In this document: positions 20,874 to 24,766 of the stretch, piece after piece
Layout of the letters: every line of letters begins with the position of its first letter
Position numbering within the stretch: position 1 is the first letter of the stretch
Source of the DNA: a virus
Lineage: Duplodnaviria; Caudoviricetes
Virus record (IMG/VR): IMGVR_UViG_3300024283_000001
Location: 1,554 to 65,553 of that record
Strand: one strand, 5' to 3'
DNA: 64,000 nucleotides
The notes under the pieces: generated by a model
The model's database searches: none
What the model was told of the DNA's origin: nothing
The model's input: only the letters and a program-made list of their open reading frames with translations
Made by a program: the position numbers and the translations under genes

Positions 20874-21121
20874 TCCTCCCGACGAATCGGCCGCTTCAAT
20901 CCGAGGCGCAGGAGTTCATCCAGCTTGGCCGTCTCAATTGTTCGGTTGTTTGTGTTGAACACGTGAATAAGCTGATCCCGGAACCAGGCGATGTCGTGGG
21001 TGTAGCAGATGAGGACCTTCGAATCCTGGCTGGCCAGCGGCTGGCCCTTCCGGATCCGGTCGAGGTTATCGATGCTCAGGATCAGGACGTGCTTCTCGTC
21101 TGGAGTAGTGAAGTAGATCAC
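20870..21121 (-). CDS. Hypothetical protein (start GTG 21121)
   Basis: GTGA overlap with upstream stop. Confidence 0.5.
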   Translation of the reverse strand: MIYFTTPDEKHVLILSIDNLDRIRKGQPLASQDSKVLICYTHDIAWFRDQLIHVFNTNNRTIETAKLDELLRLGLKRPIRREE

Positions 21122-21531
21122 GACTGGATAACCTCCACGTCCACGCGCTCGTAGGTCTTGGCGAAGATATCCGGCTTGCACGGGTATATTTCGCCGGCAA
21201 CACCCGTGATCACCCAGTCGCCTGGGCAAACTATGTGGCCGCCTTCTTTCGTGTCGATCCATCCGTGATCGTGCATCCTTTGATCGCAATGTTTGCAGCG
21301 AACTTCACCAGAGACATCAGGCCGACGGAAATAGCGGACCACGTCGCCTTCCCAGTTGAGCGCCTTGCGGTACTCCGCCGTGATCTCTTGGTCGGAAATG
21401 GCGTCCCTGCGAGGACGGACGTAGTCGAGCGGGTGATCGCCATTCTTGAACCACTGCGCGGCTTCAATGACAACGGGAAGCTTGCGGTACTTCCTGAGCA
21501 GCTTAACTGTTGGGTGATTCTCTGGATTCAC
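21118..21531 (-). CDS. Conserved phage protein (YRKxPVVIEA...PGDW...YPCKPDIFxxTYE family) with CxxC-H-H insert
   Basis: Recognisable family motifs; function unknown. Confidence 0.75.
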   Translation of the reverse strand: MNPENHPTVKLLRKYRKLPVVIEAAQWFKNGDHPLDYVRPRRDAISDQEITAEYRKALNWEGDVVRYFRRPDVSGEVRCKHCDQRMHDHGWIDTKEGGHIVCPGDWVITGVAGEIYPCKPDIFAKTYERVDVEVIQS

Positions 21532-21616: not shown

Positions 21617-22051
21617 TCATCGCTGGATCTCTAATCCGAGATTCCCAACGATGCCCTGTGTGCGCGTCAGGAATTCGTGGAAAGTTTGCTTCCCTTTCAT
21701 CGAATTGCAGATCTTACAGCAAGCAATTGTGTTGTGCGCGTCGTAGCGAGGTTCGTTGTTCATGCGATCAACTCCTCCACGCGCTGGCTCACCGCAGAAA
21801 AAACACGGCGCGCCCCACAACCACACAACGAAATCCTCAAAAGAAAGATTCCACGCGATGTTGCGTTTAAGGGCATTGCCTTTCAGCTCGGAGTAGCGAC
21901 GGTATGGAGATTCCCTGCGAAGCTTTTTCTGTTGCTCTGAATGGCAAGACCTACACCATCGATGCCGACCCCGAGGACGTCCATTGTCCACAAAGAACAT
22001 TTCAGGATCGAGATCGGCCTTGCACAAGCTACAGATCATTCTCCACCGCAC
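21617..22051 (-). CDS. HNH-like endonuclease with Zn fingers, 144 aa
   Basis: CxxC pairs, GVDRMNN...NTIACCKICNSMKG. Confidence 0.7.
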   Translation of the reverse strand: MRWRMICSLCKADLDPEMFFVDNGRPRGRHRWCRSCHSEQQKKLRRESPYRRYSELKGNALKRNIAWNLSFEDFVVWLWGAPCFFCGEPARGGVDRMNNEPRYDAHNTIACCKICNSMKGKQTFHEFLTRTQGIVGNLGLEIQR

Positions 22052-22251
22052 GCTATCGATGCATTAGCCGTGAATGTCGCTTCACGGATCTTCCGCACGG
22101 CGGCCGTCTGATCAGCGCTCGGTGGTGTGTTCTCGACGACGACCTCGGCGAAATGCTTCGCTGCCTCGCGGATCGCCTGGTACTTCGGCAGCTGCTCCGG
22201 CGTCGGGCTGTGGTAAGAAAACCAGTTCTCCAGATTTGCTTTCGTGATCAT
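22036..22251 (-). CDS. Helical-hairpin protein resembling the Acb2/Tad1 nucleotide-sponge family, 71 aa
   Basis: FSYHSPTPEQ..KY..IR..A..FA......P.SADQ..A..KI.EA.F.ANA.IA pattern, recalled from memory. Confidence 0.5.
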   Translation of the reverse strand: MITKANLENWFSYHSPTPEQLPKYQAIREAAKHFAEVVVENTPPSADQTAAVRKIREATFTANASIACGGE

Positions 22252-22360: not shown

Positions 22361-22990
22361 CTATGCCGCCAGCTTCGTTTCGTTCGCGGTGCGAATGAAA
22401 GCTTCCTCGTCCGTCTCGAGCCACATCTTCTGGCTCACCGCGATGTCATCAGCTGGCAGCGATTCGTTTGGATGGATACAGAAGAGCGACGTGGCTTTCT
22501 TCGTCGCCGGATCCAGGCGCTCAACCTTGCGCCCGGGCTTAATGCGGTAAAGTCTTCCGCTCGAGGTCTCGAGATCGAAGAAGTGTTCTCGCTTGAGCTG
22601 CTCGCGCTGTTCGTCGTTCAGTGTCGCCTCGAGGAGCTCACGGGCGCGTGCCGAGATCTTCTTCTGTTGTTCGTCCCACTCAGCCTGTCTCTTGAGTCGC
22701 GCCACCATCTCTTCTTCGGTTTCTGGAGTCTGCGGCCAGTCACCGTAGTAGACCACGTTCCCTGTGGTATACGTTTGCGTGATGGGAACTGCGTACACAG
22801 TCGCAGTGTTCAGTGTCCCGTAGACCTGCTGGTAGCTGACATAGCTGTTTACGGTGGCGCTCGTGATCGGCGTTTGAGCGTAGCCGTAGAGAGCGTTGAC
22901 GTTGGGGTTGTACCAGACGTTCGGAGTGTAATTACTGGCGACGGCTGAAGTTCCGTACGGATTATAGATTCCCGCTGGGCTGTAGGGCAT
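22361..22990 (-). CDS. Hypothetical protein with Y/N/T-rich N-terminus and GRLYRI...CIHPN...QKMWLETDE..F...AN domain, 209 aa
   Basis: Translation; co-oriented with diGly protein. Confidence 0.75.
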   Translation of the reverse strand: MPYSPAGIYNPYGTSAVASNYTPNVWYNPNVNALYGYAQTPITSATVNSYVSYQQVYGTLNTATVYAVPITQTYTTGNVVYYGDWPQTPETEEEMVARLKRQAEWDEQQKKISARARELLEATLNDEQREQLKREHFFDLETSSGRLYRIKPGRKVERLDPATKKATSLFCIHPNESLPADDIAVSQKMWLETDEEAFIRTANETKLAA

Positions 22991-22993
22991 CGT

Positions 22994-23362
22994 TCACTTT
23001 CTGAGTGGCGGCCACGCGTCTGGATCTGTGGGGACATACATCCAGCGCGCAACGATCACAGTCTTGCCGTCCTGAGTTCCGATTGTCTCGACGCCCCGGT
23101 AGTACACACGGCGAGCGCTTGGCAGCGATTCCATCTCGACTTCATCGGAATAGATGTGAAAGCCGGACTGATACTTCGAGCGCCAGTCGCCGATCTTTTT
23201 GCTCTCGGCTTTGATCCACTGATCCATGGGCACGTCCAGCTTGCCGTCAATGCCGACATTCTGGAAATGCAACTCGCCACCCCAGCCGTTGAACTGTTTC
23301 CAACCACACATGATCAGCTCTTCGCAGTCGGGATCTTTGTTAGTGATTTTATCGAGACGCAT
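22994..23362 (-). CDS. Hypothetical protein, 122 aa
   Basis: Tightly packed in operon. Confidence 0.65.
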   Translation of the reverse strand: MRLDKITNKDPDCEELIMCGWKQFNGWGGELHFQNVGIDGKLDVPMDQWIKAESKKIGDWRSKYQSGFHIYSDEVEMESLPSARRVYYRGVETIGTQDGKTVIVARWMYVPTDPDAWPPLRK

Positions 23363-23370
23363 CGGCGGGG

Positions 23371-23595
23371 CTATCCTCCGACCATCGGCGGCACGAAGAT
23401 GATCCGCTCTTCCATGGGATCGAACTCCGCGAGACTTTGCCCTTTCGAGTTCCGCTTGTCAACGGCAAAAGCGGCGTAGCCTTTCTTCTGCATCTCGCGA
23501 AACTTCGCGCGAGCTTCTTCGACCTGACGTGGATTTTCCGGATCCCACTGGATGCGCGTGTCACCCGTGTGATCGAGTGTGCTGAGTGTGCCCAT
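23371..23595 (-). CDS. Small protein ending in diglycine (PPMVGG), 74 aa
   Basis: GGAGG SD; TAG directly after GG. Confidence 0.8.
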   Translation of the reverse strand: MGTLSTLDHTGDTRIQWDPENPRQVEEARAKFREMQKKGYAAFAVDKRNSKGQSLAEFDPMEERIIFVPPMVGG

Positions 23596-23609
23596 CTTTC
23601 CTCCCCGAT

Positions 23610-23894
23610 TTAGTTGCGTTGCTCTGACGTCTGATCAGCCTCACCGCTCTGCAGCCGCTGGAGCAATTCTGTCAACGTCTTGATCATGTCCTGTCGATCA
23701 GAGTTCGAGATGTATGTGAACTCCGGGCCCTCGAACGAGAACAGACATAACATGAATCCGTTTGCCTTGAGCTCGCGGCCTTTGTTGATCACGCTGCCGA
23801 TGACATTTCCGATTGATCGTGCCTGGTGCTCGAGGTCACGCATCTTGTCTGGATCTATCGGTCTCACTTCGCCCACCTCAAGAAGCTCTTCCAT
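23610..23894 (-). CDS. Hypothetical protein, paralog of 36809..37063
   Basis: Shared FSFEGPEFT.ISN.DR.DM.KT and DQTSEQRN. Confidence 0.75.
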   Translation of the reverse strand: MEELLEVGEVRPIDPDKMRDLEHQARSIGNVIGSVINKGRELKANGFMLCLFSFEGPEFTYISNSDRQDMIKTLTELLQRLQSGEADQTSEQRN

Positions 23895-23991: not shown

Positions 23992-24729
23992 TCACTTCTT
24001 GCCTTTCAGCTCTCGACGAAACTTGCAGATCTGGCAGTCGGGTCTGTCACAGGAATGGACTTCATTCCCCAGTGCTCGAGCGAGAGATAATCCACTCGCG
24101 AGTTGGGCCCGGGAAGATTCTGGAGCCACGCGAGGAATATCGCCTGAAGCTGTGGCTTTGTCAGGAACGGATGCAGAGGCCGCTCTTCGAGGCACAGCAT
24201 TTCCTCTGCGCGGCCGACTACGCCGTTCACGACGAGCAGGGTCTCCCATCCGTACGGAGTGCGCCGCACGATTGTCTGCACGCTTACCATTTCTCACCTT
24301 CGCTTCCCGGGCCGGGGAAGATATTTGTCTCTGGCACTGAGAGCGGATCCACTCAGCAAGCTTCATGTCATCTTGATCAGCCGCTCGTTTCCATTTTTCG
24401 TAAACATCGTCGTCCAGCTTCAAGAGATAGGTTTTCAAGTGATCAATCCTGAACTTTCTCCTCGGGGTCATCTGACCTGCGGTGTACTTAATTTTATTCG
24501 CCCTCGGCTTGTATTCCCTGATCAACCGCTTCTCGAGATCAATTGCCTCCTGTCGATTTGTGCACCAGTTCAGTTCAAGGACTTCGATATTTTTCTGATT
24601 TTCTTCAAACGTCTCATGCTTCCTGAATCGCTGCATTCCGATAAACGATCTGCCGACGTAGATGCAAGTACCTCTCTTGGACCACGCAACATAAACCAAG
24701 CAACTGTCAGCGGTGGCCGGATCTCGCAT
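23992..24729 (-). CDS. GIY-YIG-like nuclease fused to ribbon-helix-helix-like domain
   Basis: VYVAW...CIYVGRS...R...H...E...LE..LI...P..N; TYLLKLDDDVYEKWKRAA...LAEWIR; leaderless start at 24729 suggested by promoter. Confidence 0.6.
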   Translation of the reverse strand: MRDPATADSCLVYVAWSKRGTCIYVGRSFIGMQRFRKHETFEENQKNIEVLELNWCTNRQEAIDLEKRLIREYKPRANKIKYTAGQMTPRRKFRIDHLKTYLLKLDDDVYEKWKRAADQDDMKLAEWIRSQCQRQISSPAREAKVRNGKRADNRAAHSVRMGDPARRERRSRPRRGNAVPRRAASASVPDKATASGDIPRVAPESSRAQLASGLSLARALGNEVHSCDRPDCQICKFRRELKGKK

Positions 24730-24736
24730 CGGGCTC

Positions 24737-24766
24737 ATCTTAAAGGACAGTATATATAGTGGTCAA
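24737..24766 (-). promoter_or_regulatory. Sigma70-type promoter with AGTATATA repeats
   Basis: TTGACC-N18-TAAGAT; ATG 7 nt after the -10. Confidence 0.5.

What the first reader, a model, noticed from the sequence alone, without database searches (positions are those of the whole stretch)
22361..23595. Possible phage protein-conjugation module: diGly-terminated small protein plus Cys-His-Pro-Asn partner
Seen: a 74-aa beta/alpha protein ends exactly in PPMVGG-stop, the hallmark of ubiquitin-like and ThiS/MoaD proteins. Two genes downstream, a 209-aa protein has FCIHPN (HPN is an E2 motif, although the Cys lies before it here) behind a Y/N/T/S-rich low-complexity N-terminus. No E1 or JAB gene is present. 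Inference: a minimal conjugation or sulfur-carrier system, or a decoy for host E1/E2-based defences such as CBASS Cap2 or Bil.
Basis: partly seen in the sequence, partly recalled or inferred. Interest (0 to 1): 0.7.

Follow-up and report, generated by a model that had tools for sequence, protein, structure and literature searches.

The report
Phage ubiquitin-like tag with E2-like partner
This uncultured phage carries a widespread but undescribed gene pair, a small ubiquitin-shaped protein ending in Gly-Gly and a partner with an E2-like fold and an invariant cysteine, which looks like a stripped-down protein-tagging kit with no activating enzyme of its own.

Summary
The window is a complete 65.5-kb phage genome.

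- **Tag protein.** The 74-aa protein (23371-23595, minus strand) ends in PPMVGG-stop. It belongs to a large unnamed family: 1,437 representatives at 50% identity, and 122 of the best 150 end in GG.
- **Tag fold.** Its predicted fold (pLDDT 87) is beta-beta-alpha-beta-beta-beta. Its structural neighbours are almost all ubiquitin/MoaD-type beta-grasp proteins, though with weak Z scores.
- **Partner.** The 209-aa protein belongs to a second unnamed family. A member of that family lies immediately downstream of the GG gene in 50 of 51 loci examined, usually with overlapping stop and start codons.
- **Partner fold.** Its C-terminal domain (pLDDT 97) has an E2/RWD-like layout. An invariant Cys ends strand 4 in a Cys-x-His-Pro motif.
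- **Predicted complex.** A controlled prediction scored 0.80 against 0.00 for the controls. It places the GG tail on the Cys loop.
- **No E1.** No ThiF-type E1 is encoded by this phage. Only 1 of 36 other phage records carrying the pair has one.

My best reading is a minimal Ubl/E2-like carrier or conjugation module that depends on a host E1. Covalent chemistry is untested, and decoy or non-covalent roles remain open.

I found no published description. This scan has already flagged the same or a similar pair on other DNA (e1-5804079 confirmed as the same family; e1-5687090 and three more not checked).

The parts
23371..23595 (-). Ubl-GG: 74-aa beta-grasp-like protein ending in PPMVGG-stop (P0001)
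   Evidence: ORF with a good SD. Family of 1,437 representatives, 122 of the top 150 ending in GG. AF2 pLDDT 87 with b-b-a-b-b-b order. Structural neighbours are ubiquitin, SUMO, MoaD, TtuB, CysO, RBD and PB1, with Z up to 5.0. No Pfam, NCBIfam or PHROG family.
23374..23379 (-). Codons of the terminal Gly73-Gly74 (GGA GGA), followed by TAG
   Evidence: Read directly. Gly74 is invariant and Gly73 is at least 90% conserved in A2. Synonymous codons vary freely among homologues.
22994..23362 (-). Optional 122-aa insert gene between the pair (P0002), function unknown
   Evidence: Homologues sit between the GG gene and the partner gene in only 7 of 51 loci. No family match. The Atlas model is of low confidence.
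22739..22990 (-). N-terminal uncharged, Y/N/T/S/V-rich, hypervariable region of the partner (residues 1-84)
   Evidence: No D/E/K/R/H in residues 1-83. It is 30-42% identical to close relatives, against 78-82% for the C-domain and 92-95% for the Ubl. Similar T/S/N/W/Y-rich N-termini occur across the family.
22364..22738 (-). E2/RWD-like C-terminal domain of the 209-aa partner (residues 85-209 of P0003)
   Evidence: AF2 pLDDT 96.8 with layout a-a-b4-loop-a-a-b. Best VIA matches are RWD (Z 4.8), Ubc9 (4.7), GCN2 RWD (4.7), UEV, several E2s, a bacterial E2 in 8tyz and Cap2. Present next to the GG gene in 50 of 51 loci.
22469..22480 (-). Cys171-Ile-His173-Pro174: the invariant Cys at the end of strand 4, and the Cys-x-His-Pro motif
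   Evidence: Cys is invariant and His and Pro are at least 90% conserved in the 51-sequence alignment A4. Residues 87-95 of the domain (full-length 171-179) are in the predicted interface with tail residues 68-74 of the Ubl.

Best explanation
The two genes form one translationally coupled phage module.

The 74-aa protein is a ubiquitin-like beta-grasp protein made with a free Gly-Gly end. The 209-aa protein is its carrier. Its C-terminal E2/RWD-like domain binds the Ubl body on the helix that follows the active-site loop. That places the Gly-Gly tail on the loop carrying the invariant Cys171-x-His173-Pro.

The phage encodes no E1. I therefore infer that a host ThiF/MoeB-type adenylating enzyme activates the tail. 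The Ubl would then pass as a thioester to Cys171, with His173 and invariant Asp182 assisting. From there it would go to a target chosen by the fast-evolving, uncharged N-terminal region of the partner.

Shown here (computationally): the conserved pairing, the conservation of GG and Cys, the fold resemblances, the predicted complex and the absence of a phage E1.

Inferred: adenylation by a host enzyme, the thioester, the target and the biological role (host takeover or counter-defence).
For: 1. **Pairing.** A partner-family gene follows the GG gene in 50 of 51 loci, mostly at 0-5 nt or with overlapping stop and start. No third gene family is conserved within 5 kb either side. The pairing also holds in two MAG contigs, in tandem-Ubl variants and in Virus Rctr197k.
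2. **GG terminus.** It is conserved at the protein level.
3. **Ubl fold.** The model is beta-grasp-like and nearly all top structural neighbours are Ubl/MoaD-type proteins.
4. **Partner fold.** The model has pLDDT 96.8. About 16 of the top 50 VIA matches are UBC, RWD or UEV proteins, including Ubc9, bacterial 8tyz_C and Cap2. The invariant Cys sits at the end of strand 4, where E2 active-site loops begin.
5. **Predicted complex.** Score 0.80 against a best control of 0.00. That mark was reached by 58 of 80 solved complexes and 2 of 110 mismatched pairs. The runs agree in 100% of contacts and the partner's pLDDT is at least 88. The interface includes the Cys loop 87-95 and tail residues 68-74.
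6. **A 'nucleophile-x-His plus Asp' E2 site has precedent.** BubB has Ser333-x-His335 plus an Asp (PMC11601596). In E2-CBASS, Cys101 and His87 are both essential (10.1101/2022.05.25.493364).
7. **No phage E1, but host ones are available.** ThiF was found in 0 of 1 own genome, 1 of 36 other pair-bearing records and 0 of 15 records at least 90% complete. ThiF-type genes are present in both MAGs that hold the pair and in all control genomes.
8. **A candidate recognition region.** Bil E2s are proposed to pick targets directly (PMC11601596). Here the partner's N-terminal region diverges much faster than the rest of the protein.
Against: No covalent bond has been observed.

The fold matches are weak: Z at most 5.0 for the Ubl and at most 4.8 for the partner. 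That is below the level at which the aligner's own notes allow more than 'a common arrangement'. KTSC-domain proteins score about as well on the beta-meander part.

Neither protein matches any Ubl, ThiS/MoaD, UQ_con or Prok-E2 profile by sequence.

The canonical E2 order (HPN, then Cys) is reversed and the Asn is not conserved.

The complex prediction may pass through likeness to solved E2~Ub complexes, and it used my own alignments.

No host is known, so no E1 candidate could be tested.

Close relatives of this phage have lost the module. It is therefore dispensable, which does not help to identify its role.
Confidence: 0.45

Rival explanations
1. Counter-defence decoy or trap. The phage Ubl-GG competes for the E1 of a host Ubl-type immune system (CBASS type II Cap2, Bil or Bub). 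The E2-like partner draws off or sequesters the activated species, and no productive tagging of its own follows.
For: The module lies in an accessory region next to an Acb2/Tad1-hairpin gene (PF24729, E 1e-11). It is dispensable in close relatives. It has no E1 of its own. The family is nearly confined to viral sequence: 49 viral loci came from one narrow pattern, against 2 hits in 185,579 species genomes and 1 of 301 genomes of one phylum, which was the seed genome itself. The N-terminus of the partner evolves fast, as expected in an arms race.
Against: Acb2 is present in only 3 of 36 other pair-bearing phages and is not adjacent to the pair in them. A decoy alone would not need an invariant Cys-x-His partner in nearly every genome. 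The family is very widespread (1,437 clusters), whereas Bil and Bub systems are not known to be common (established knowledge, not tested here).
Confidence: 0.2
2. Non-covalent heterodimer. The two proteins form a tight complex in which the C-terminal carboxylate and the Cys/His serve only for binding or structure. In this reading the partner acts like the non-catalytic RWD/UEV relatives of E2, with some regulatory role in early infection.
For: The best structural matches are non-catalytic RWD domains (2daw Z 4.8, 2yz0 Z 4.7). The loop between strand 4 and the next helix is only 8 residues, as in RWD domains and much shorter than in E2s. There is no E1. The complex is predicted with high confidence without any covalent link.
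Against: A chain that ends exactly at Gly-Gly in 122 of 150 diverse members, together with a single invariant Cys followed by a near-invariant His, is the pattern of acyl-transfer chemistry rather than of a binding surface. Family members with GG plus 1-12 extra residues look like precursors that need trimming.
Confidence: 0.2
3. E1-independent protease/transpeptidase, as in E2-only CBASS. The Cys-His site would cut a peptide bond after a Gly, capture the acyl group as a thioester without ATP, and pass it on.
For: In E2-CBASS a stand-alone E2 with an essential Cys and His processes the cGAS C-terminus and links it to Cys and then to Lys, without an E1. Twelve of the 150 family members carry a short extension after GG.
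Against: In this window and in 122 of 150 relatives the Ubl already ends in GG. There is then no peptide bond to supply the energy for a thioester.
Confidence: 0.1
4. Sulfur carrier. The Ubl would be thiocarboxylated like ThiS, MoaD or TtuB, with the partner Cys acting as a persulfide relay for a phage-directed thiolation.
For: MoaD, TtuB, CysO and Mth1743 are among the structural neighbours of the Ubl (Z 3.6-4.2). The mature GG end is typical of sulfur carriers.
Against: No rhodanese, cysteine desulfurase, or MoaE/ThiG/TtuA-type acceptor enzyme is conserved near the pair. There is no sequence match to PF02597. The partner looks like an E2/RWD domain, not a sulfurtransferase.
Confidence: 0.05

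Closest known systems
Bil (BilABCD) and Bub bacterial ubiquitination-like operons (PMC10557695, PMC11601596)
   Same: A small beta-grasp Ubl with a C-terminal Gly is encoded next to a minimal E2 that lacks the C-terminal helix pair. There is no E3, and the E2 is thought to pick targets itself. Type I BubB has a nucleophile-x-His motif plus an Asp, which parallels Cys171-x-His173 plus Asp182 here.
   Different: Those operons always encode an E1 and a peptidase, and they are cellular anti-phage systems. This pair has neither enzyme and is carried by phages. It has no sequence similarity to their Ubl or E2 families. Its nucleophile lies at the very end of strand 4.
E2-only (short type II) CBASS: CdnG plus stand-alone E2 (10.1101/2022.05.25.493364; PMC12948482)
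   Same: A two-component, E1-less pair in which a C-terminal Gly tail inserts into an E2 fold, next to a Cys that needs a nearby His.
   Different: The donor there is a 400-aa cyclase whose tail carries a residue after the Gly, which the E2 cleaves. Here the donor is a 74-aa Ubl that already ends in GG. That system is a bacterial defence system. This one is a phage gene pair.
ThiS / MoaD / TtuB / Urm1 / SAMP sulfur-carrier and modifier Ubls
   Same: A small beta-grasp protein translated with a mature GG end, which could be activated by a shared ThiF/MoeB-type E1.
   Different: No sequence match to PF02597. No synthase or sulfurtransferase partner. The constant partner is instead an E2/RWD-like Cys protein, which those systems lack.
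RWD and UEV domains (non-catalytic members of the UBC superfold)
   Same: These are the best structural matches. They share the alpha-beta4-alpha-alpha layout, with a short Pro-containing turn after strand 4 (RWD has YPxxxP, from memory; here it is H-P-x-x-x-x-P).
   Different: RWD and UEV domains have no catalytic Cys. This family has an invariant Cys two residues before the His.

Membership tests
Ubiquitin-like / ThiS-MoaD beta-grasp modifiers | Beta-grasp fold (b-b-a-b-b-b with the helix packed on the sheet) | tested here: met
   AF2 model with pLDDT 87 and element order E-E-H-E-E-E. Nearly all of the top 50 Foldseek and VIA rows are beta-grasp proteins aligned over residues 1-74. The scores are weak: best Z 5.0, rmsd 4.1, 70 residues aligned; Foldseek E at least 0.08.
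Ubiquitin-like / ThiS-MoaD beta-grasp modifiers | Flexible C-terminal tail ending in Gly-Gly | tested here: met
   PPMVGG-stop. 122 of 150 relatives end in GG. The last Gly is invariant in A2. The codons vary synonymously.
Ubiquitin-like / ThiS-MoaD beta-grasp modifiers | Sequence match to a curated Ubl family (PF00240, PF02597, Prok_Ub and the like) | tested here: not met
   No Pfam or NCBIfam hit for P0001 at E up to 1. Among 125 family members no Ubl family appears in the 25 listed families (of 48) that most members match.
Ubiquitin-like / ThiS-MoaD beta-grasp modifiers | C-terminal adenylation by an E1-type enzyme | not testable with these tools
   No ThiF gene in the phage. Host unknown.
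E2 / UBC superfold (UBC, RWD, UEV) | N-terminal helix, four-stranded antiparallel meander, then helices | tested here: met
   AF2 model with pLDDT 96.8: H8-38, H42-51, E54-57, E63-66, E72-75, E82-87, H96-109, H111-117.
E2 / UBC superfold (UBC, RWD, UEV) | Significant structural similarity to solved UBC, RWD or UEV domains | tested here: inconclusive
   RWD 2daw Z 4.8 (100 residues aligned), Ubc9 4y1l Z 4.7 (81), GCN2 RWD Z 4.7 (87). UEV, E2 E1, E2 J2, E2S, 8tyz_C and Cap2 7to3 score Z 3.1-3.9. All are below Z 5. Foldseek found nothing with E below 0.39. KTSC domains score Z 4.0-4.3 on residues 52-124.
E2 / UBC superfold (UBC, RWD, UEV) | Conserved catalytic Cys in the loop after strand 4 | tested here: met
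   Cys171 (domain residue 87) is invariant in 51 sequences and closes strand 4.
E2 / UBC superfold (UBC, RWD, UEV) | HPN motif upstream of the catalytic Cys | tested here: not met
   The order is Cys-x-His-Pro and the following residue is variable.
E2 / UBC superfold (UBC, RWD, UEV) | Sequence match to UQ_con, Prok-E2 or RWD profiles | tested here: not met
   Scans of P0003 and of all 51 members of A4 against Pfam show no E2, RWD or UEV family among the 25 listed families (of 34) that most members match. A PDB profile search gave nothing relevant.
Bil / Bub / CBASS type II operons | Co-encoded E1 (ThiF-type adenylation domain) | tested here: not met
   PF00899 was found in 0 of 1 own complete genome. 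It was found above cut-off in 1 of 36 other pair-bearing phage records, tens of kb from the pair, and in 0 of 15 records at least 90% complete.
Bil / Bub / CBASS type II operons | Co-encoded JAB/JAMM or DUF6527 peptidase | tested here: not met
   No PF14464 match in the own genome. No third conserved gene within 5 kb in 51 loci. DUF6527 and PF01398 were not searched separately.
E2-only CBASS | Donor tail carries at least one residue after the Gly, which the E2 cleaves | tested here: not met
   The Ubl ends in GG-stop here and in 122 of 150 relatives. Twelve of 150 have an extension.

The most novel reading that the evidence does not exclude
Phages widely carry their own minimal ubiquitin-like tagging system: a Ubl plus a new, very small E2-type carrier with a Cys-x-His site. 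It would either hijack a housekeeping host E1 (MoeB/ThiF) or work without any E1, and would tag host or phage proteins during infection. The hypervariable N-terminus of the carrier would act as a built-in substrate selector. This would be the viral counterpart of the Bil, Bub and CBASS defence systems.
Probability: 0.3. Interest if true: 0.9.

Novelty: new variant of a known kind. Interest (0 to 1): 0.75.

Why it matters
Ubiquitin-like conjugation in prokaryotes is currently understood as cellular machinery, used for sulfur transfer and for the Bil, Bub and CBASS anti-phage defences. It is thought to depend on an E1 encoded in the same operon.

Here a two-gene, E1-less Ubl/E2-like module recurs in more than a thousand sequence clusters. 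It is almost confined to phage sequence.

If the pair makes covalent adducts, it would show that viruses of bacteria use protein tagging themselves. It would define a new minimal E2-type fold with a Cys-x-His site. It would also raise the question of which host enzyme is hijacked for activation.

If it is a decoy, it would be a new class of inhibitor of Ubl-based immunity.

Both families currently have no Pfam, NCBIfam or functional PHROG annotation, so defining them would annotate thousands of 'hypothetical' phage genes.

Tried and rejected
- **Family and sequence searches.** Pfam, NCBIfam and PHROGs gave nothing meaningful for P0001, P0002 or P0003. PDB profile searches with A2 and A4 gave only chance-level hits.
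- **Word-indexed search.** The search for P0001 found only two near-identical proteins. The exhaustive search was needed to see the family.
- **Locus search with the full alignment.** The search for related loci with the 125-sequence alignment failed for lack of a conserved stretch. A 12-sequence alignment worked.
- **GG as a by-product of a ribosome-binding site.** I tested whether GG is conserved because GGAGG serves the next gene. This is rejected: only 7 of 46 penultimate codons are GGA and all four Gly codons occur.
- **Anti-CBASS island.** I tested whether the pair is part of such an island because Acb2 is adjacent here. This is rejected as a general rule (3 of 36, not adjacent).
- **Phage-encoded E1 elsewhere in the genome.** Rejected.
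- **Cultured phages.** tblastn with P0001, P0048, P0024 and the E2-like domain found only Virus Rctr197k and one uncultured phage. HMM searches of Agrobacterium phage Atu_ph07 were negative at E 0.01. Profile comparisons of its candidate pair were weak, with probabilities of 18% and 0.2%. That pair remains a lead only.
- **Structure searches of the partner.** Foldseek against PDB gave no hit with E below 0.39. The second-look VIA run on Foldseek's list added KTSC and beta-propeller fragments but no E2.
- **Function of P0002.** The Atlas search gave nothing usable.
- **Literature.** Four full-text searches found no description of an E1-less phage Ubl/E2-like pair.
Full report
**What the window is.** It is a complete uncultured phage genome of 65,553 bp with direct terminal repeats. 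It encodes a terminase, a ParB-methyltransferase, a RecT-like protein and glycosyltransferases. It has no close cultured relative.

**Observation.** The minus strand carries three tightly spaced genes.
- P0001 (23371-23595, 74 aa) ends in PPMVGG-stop and is preceded by a strong Shine-Dalgarno sequence.
- P0002 (22994-23362, 122 aa).
- P0003 (22361-22990, 209 aa) contains FCIHPN. Its first 83 residues contain no charged residue.

The description is accurate.

**The GG protein belongs to a large unnamed family.**
- The word-indexed search saw only two near-identical proteins. An exhaustive HMMER search found 1,437 representatives at 50% identity with E up to 1e-3, and 152 with E up to 1e-10.
- Of the best 150, 122 end in GG, 13 end in a single Gly (often tandem-duplicated forms), and 12 have GG followed by 1-12 residues.
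- In a 125-sequence alignment the last Gly is invariant. The preceding Gly, a Gly-Asp turn, a Trp and a Phe of an FDP motif are at least 90% conserved.
- Neither this protein nor 125 relatives match any Pfam, NCBIfam or informative PHROG family.
- AlphaFold2 with this alignment gives pLDDT 87 and the element order strand-strand-helix-strand-strand-strand.
- Foldseek and VIA-align return almost only beta-grasp proteins: ubiquitin, SUMO, Ufm1, Urm1-like, MoaD, TtuB, CysO, Raf RBD and PB1. The scores are weak, with best Z 5.0 and Foldseek E at least 0.08.
- I read this as a beta-grasp Ubl with no sequence-level membership in any known Ubl family.

**The partner.**
- P0003 has homologues whose C-terminal ~120 residues are well conserved while the N-terminus is not.
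- I collected 49 viral loci with a GG-family gene, plus one locus from a protein look-up and the window itself.
- An HMM of the P0003 family finds a member downstream of the GG gene in 50 of the 51 loci. It usually starts 0-5 nt after the GG stop, or overlaps it as TAATG or TGATG.
- All-against-all clustering of ORFs within 5 kb shows that only these two families are shared by all loci. The next real family occurs in 12 loci, and P0002-like genes occur in 7.
- The pairing holds in two MAG contigs, in tandem-Ubl variants and in Virus Rctr197k.
- In the 51-sequence alignment A4 the Cys is invariant. The His two residues later, a Pro, an Asp (invariant), a Gln, a Phe and an Asn are at least 90% conserved.

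**Fold of the partner.**
- Residues 85-209 fold with pLDDT 96.8 into two helices, a four-stranded meander, an 8-residue loop that starts with Cys-x-His-Pro, two helices and a short strand.
- Foldseek found nothing significant, although its top rows include the RWD-type heads of Mad1 and Ndc80-complex proteins.
- The Foldseek-independent VIA search puts RWD domains (2daw Z 4.8, GCN2 Z 4.7) and Ubc9 (Z 4.7) first.
- It lists about 16 UBC, RWD or UEV proteins among its 50 rows. These include a bacterial E2 in an E1-E2-Ubl complex (8tyz_C) and Cap2 (7to3).
- All Z values are below 5 and KTSC domains score similarly on the meander. The E2/RWD assignment is therefore likely but not proven. There is no sequence support for it.

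**Predicted complex.**
- With both alignments, the controlled prediction scored 0.80 (three runs: 0.78-0.81). The best of three controls scored 0.00.
- That mark was reached by 58 of 80 solved complexes and 2 of 110 mismatched pairs. The runs agree in 100% of contacts and the partner's pLDDT is at least 88.
- On the partner side the interface comprises the Cys loop (domain residues 87-95, full-length 171-179) and the following helix. On the Ubl side it comprises the strand 1-2 loop, strands 3 and 5, and tail residues 68-74.
- Topologically this surface corresponds to the Ile44 patch of ubiquitin packing on the E2 crossover helix in 'closed' E2~Ub complexes. That comparison is my inference from the residue list and from established knowledge.
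- The pass may owe something to the model's memory of E2~Ub structures. It supports binding and does not show it.

**No activating enzyme.**
- ThiF (PF00899) and Prok-JAB (PF14464) are absent from this complete genome.
- Among 36 other phage records with the pair, one has a ThiF domain, tens of kb from the pair. None of the 15 records that are at least 90% complete has one above cut-off.
- Cells do have such enzymes. Both MAGs that hold the pair have two ThiF-type genes, and all the control genomes ring.

**Distribution.** The family is nearly confined to viral sequence.
- One narrow peptide pattern gave 49 viral loci, but only 2 hits in one genome for each of 185,579 species.
- The family HMM found it in 1 of 301 genomes of one phylum, and that one was the seed genome itself.

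**Evolutionary behaviour.**
- Between this phage and its closest relatives the Ubl is 92-95% identical and the E2-like domain 78-82%. The partner's N-terminal region is only 30-42% identical, with length changes.
- Uncharged N-termini rich in T, S, N, W and Y are general in the family.
- Three mosaic relatives keep only the first 23 codons of the Ubl gene and lack everything up to the middle of the 137-aa gene at 21118-21531. The module is therefore accessory.
- The Acb2/Tad1-hairpin gene just downstream is not generally linked to the pair.

**A rival explanation of the GG that I tested.** In this window the Gly-Gly codons read GGAGGA and could serve as the ribosome-binding site of the next gene. 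Across 46 distinct homologues all four Gly codons are used at both positions and only 7 have GGA first. The conservation is therefore at the protein level.

**Comparison with known systems.**
- Bil and Bub operons pair a Ubl with a minimal E2 and lack an E3, but they always include an E1 and a peptidase (PMC11601596).
- Type I BubB has Ser-x-His plus an Asp at the E2 active site. This is the closest parallel to Cys171-x-His173 plus Asp182.
- E2-only CBASS shows that an E2 with an essential Cys and His can work without an E1. It does so by cleaving a residue after the Gly. That route is closed to a Ubl that already ends in GG, although 12 of 150 family members do carry an extension.
- Sulfur carriers share the mature GG end but not the partner.

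**Conclusion.**
- The pair is a real, conserved, phage-borne Ubl/E2-like module.
- The most likely mechanism is host-E1-dependent charging of the invariant Cys, followed by transfer to a target selected by the variable N-terminus. I give this a confidence of 0.45.
- The rivals are a decoy for Ubl-based immunity, a purely non-covalent complex, an E1-less transpeptidase and a sulfur carrier.
- I found no published description.
- Notes of this scan report what looks like the same pair on other genomes. I confirmed the identity only for the Rctr197k case.
- A lead to a cultured system came from the BFVD fold search. It hit an uncharacterised 397-aa protein of Agrobacterium phage Atu_ph07 (E 4.5e-3).
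- In that genome a 397-aa gene lies 4 nt downstream of a 117-aa gene. The product of the 117-aa gene ends in FAGG and gives a weak Ubl-family hit. Profile comparisons are too weak to confirm it.

Noticed in passing
window 22036-22251 (-): A 71-aa gene directly downstream of the module matches the Acb2/Tad1 hairpin domain (PF24729, E 1.1e-11, above cut-off; phrog_1454 E 6e-17). It is a candidate cyclic-nucleotide sponge against CBASS or Thoeris.
   Followed up: partly
L002 1651-1742, L003 2468-2559, L004 1401-1492 versus window 23519-23609: Three mosaic relatives (IMG/VR contigs) are 96-98% identical in the GIY-YIG region. They keep only the ribosome-binding site and the first 23 codons of the Ubl gene, then join the C-terminal part of the 137-aa gene in another frame. 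The Ubl, the 122-aa gene, the E2-like gene, Acb2 and the HNH gene are all missing.
   Followed up: partly
window 23992-24738 (-) and 21617-22051 (-): A GIY-YIG endonuclease (PF01541, E 4e-7) and an HNH/endonuclease VII-like protein (phrog_1035, E 7e-18) flank the accessory block. They may be homing endonucleases that help to move it.
   Followed up: no
N-terminal regions of E2-like partners in L018-L056 (e.g. L056 5234-5530, L025 5232-5530): A short W-x-x-W-N motif recurs, often 2-3 times, in the uncharged N-terminal region of 21 of 47 partner proteins. Composition-preserving shuffles give 6.9 +/- 2.1. It is not present in this window's protein.
   Followed up: partly
L015 5316-5750 and 5752-7107: One phage has two E2-like genes after the GG gene. 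The second has Cys-Gly-Tyr-Pro in place of Cys-x-His-Pro and is fused to a calcineurin-like phosphoesterase domain (PF00149, E 6e-8).
   Followed up: no
L017 2329-2959 and 4995-5727: One 40-kb phage contig carries two copies of the pair. The second Ubl ends in HAG, and its partner keeps the Cys but lacks the His.
   Followed up: no
P0019, P0023, P0024, P0043, P0049, P0053; L060 100-1557; L064 2300-3552: A subfamily has tandem-duplicated Ubl domains ending in a single Gly (..PG, ..KG, ..RG). In one contig it is followed by a patatin-like phospholipase, with the E2-like gene four genes further on. Virus Rctr197k belongs to this subfamily.
   Followed up: partly
L072 1238-2789 (Agrobacterium phage Atu_ph07, MF403008 181237-182788, minus strand): The cultured jumbo phage Atu_ph07 has a 117-aa protein ending in FAGG, 4 nt upstream of a 397-aa protein with a Cys-Val-Tyr-Ser-Pro motif. 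A 397-aa Atu_ph07 protein is a Foldseek match to the E2-like model (E 4.5e-3). It may be a distant version of the pair in a tractable host.
   Followed up: partly
window 21149-21354 (inside the 137-aa gene 21118-21531, -): About 200 nt of this gene (phrog_419, PGDYG-like C-terminus) is 68-80% identical at the DNA level to phages of very different hosts: Shewanella, Salmonella, Rhodococcus, Gordonia, Mycobacterium and Microbacterium. In some of them the region is annotated as MazG-like.
   Followed up: no
window 23610-23894 (-): The 94-aa gene just upstream of the Ubl gene matches phrog_35296 (E 8e-6, unknown function). It is absent from the mosaic relatives and is not conserved next to the pair elsewhere.
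   Followed up: no
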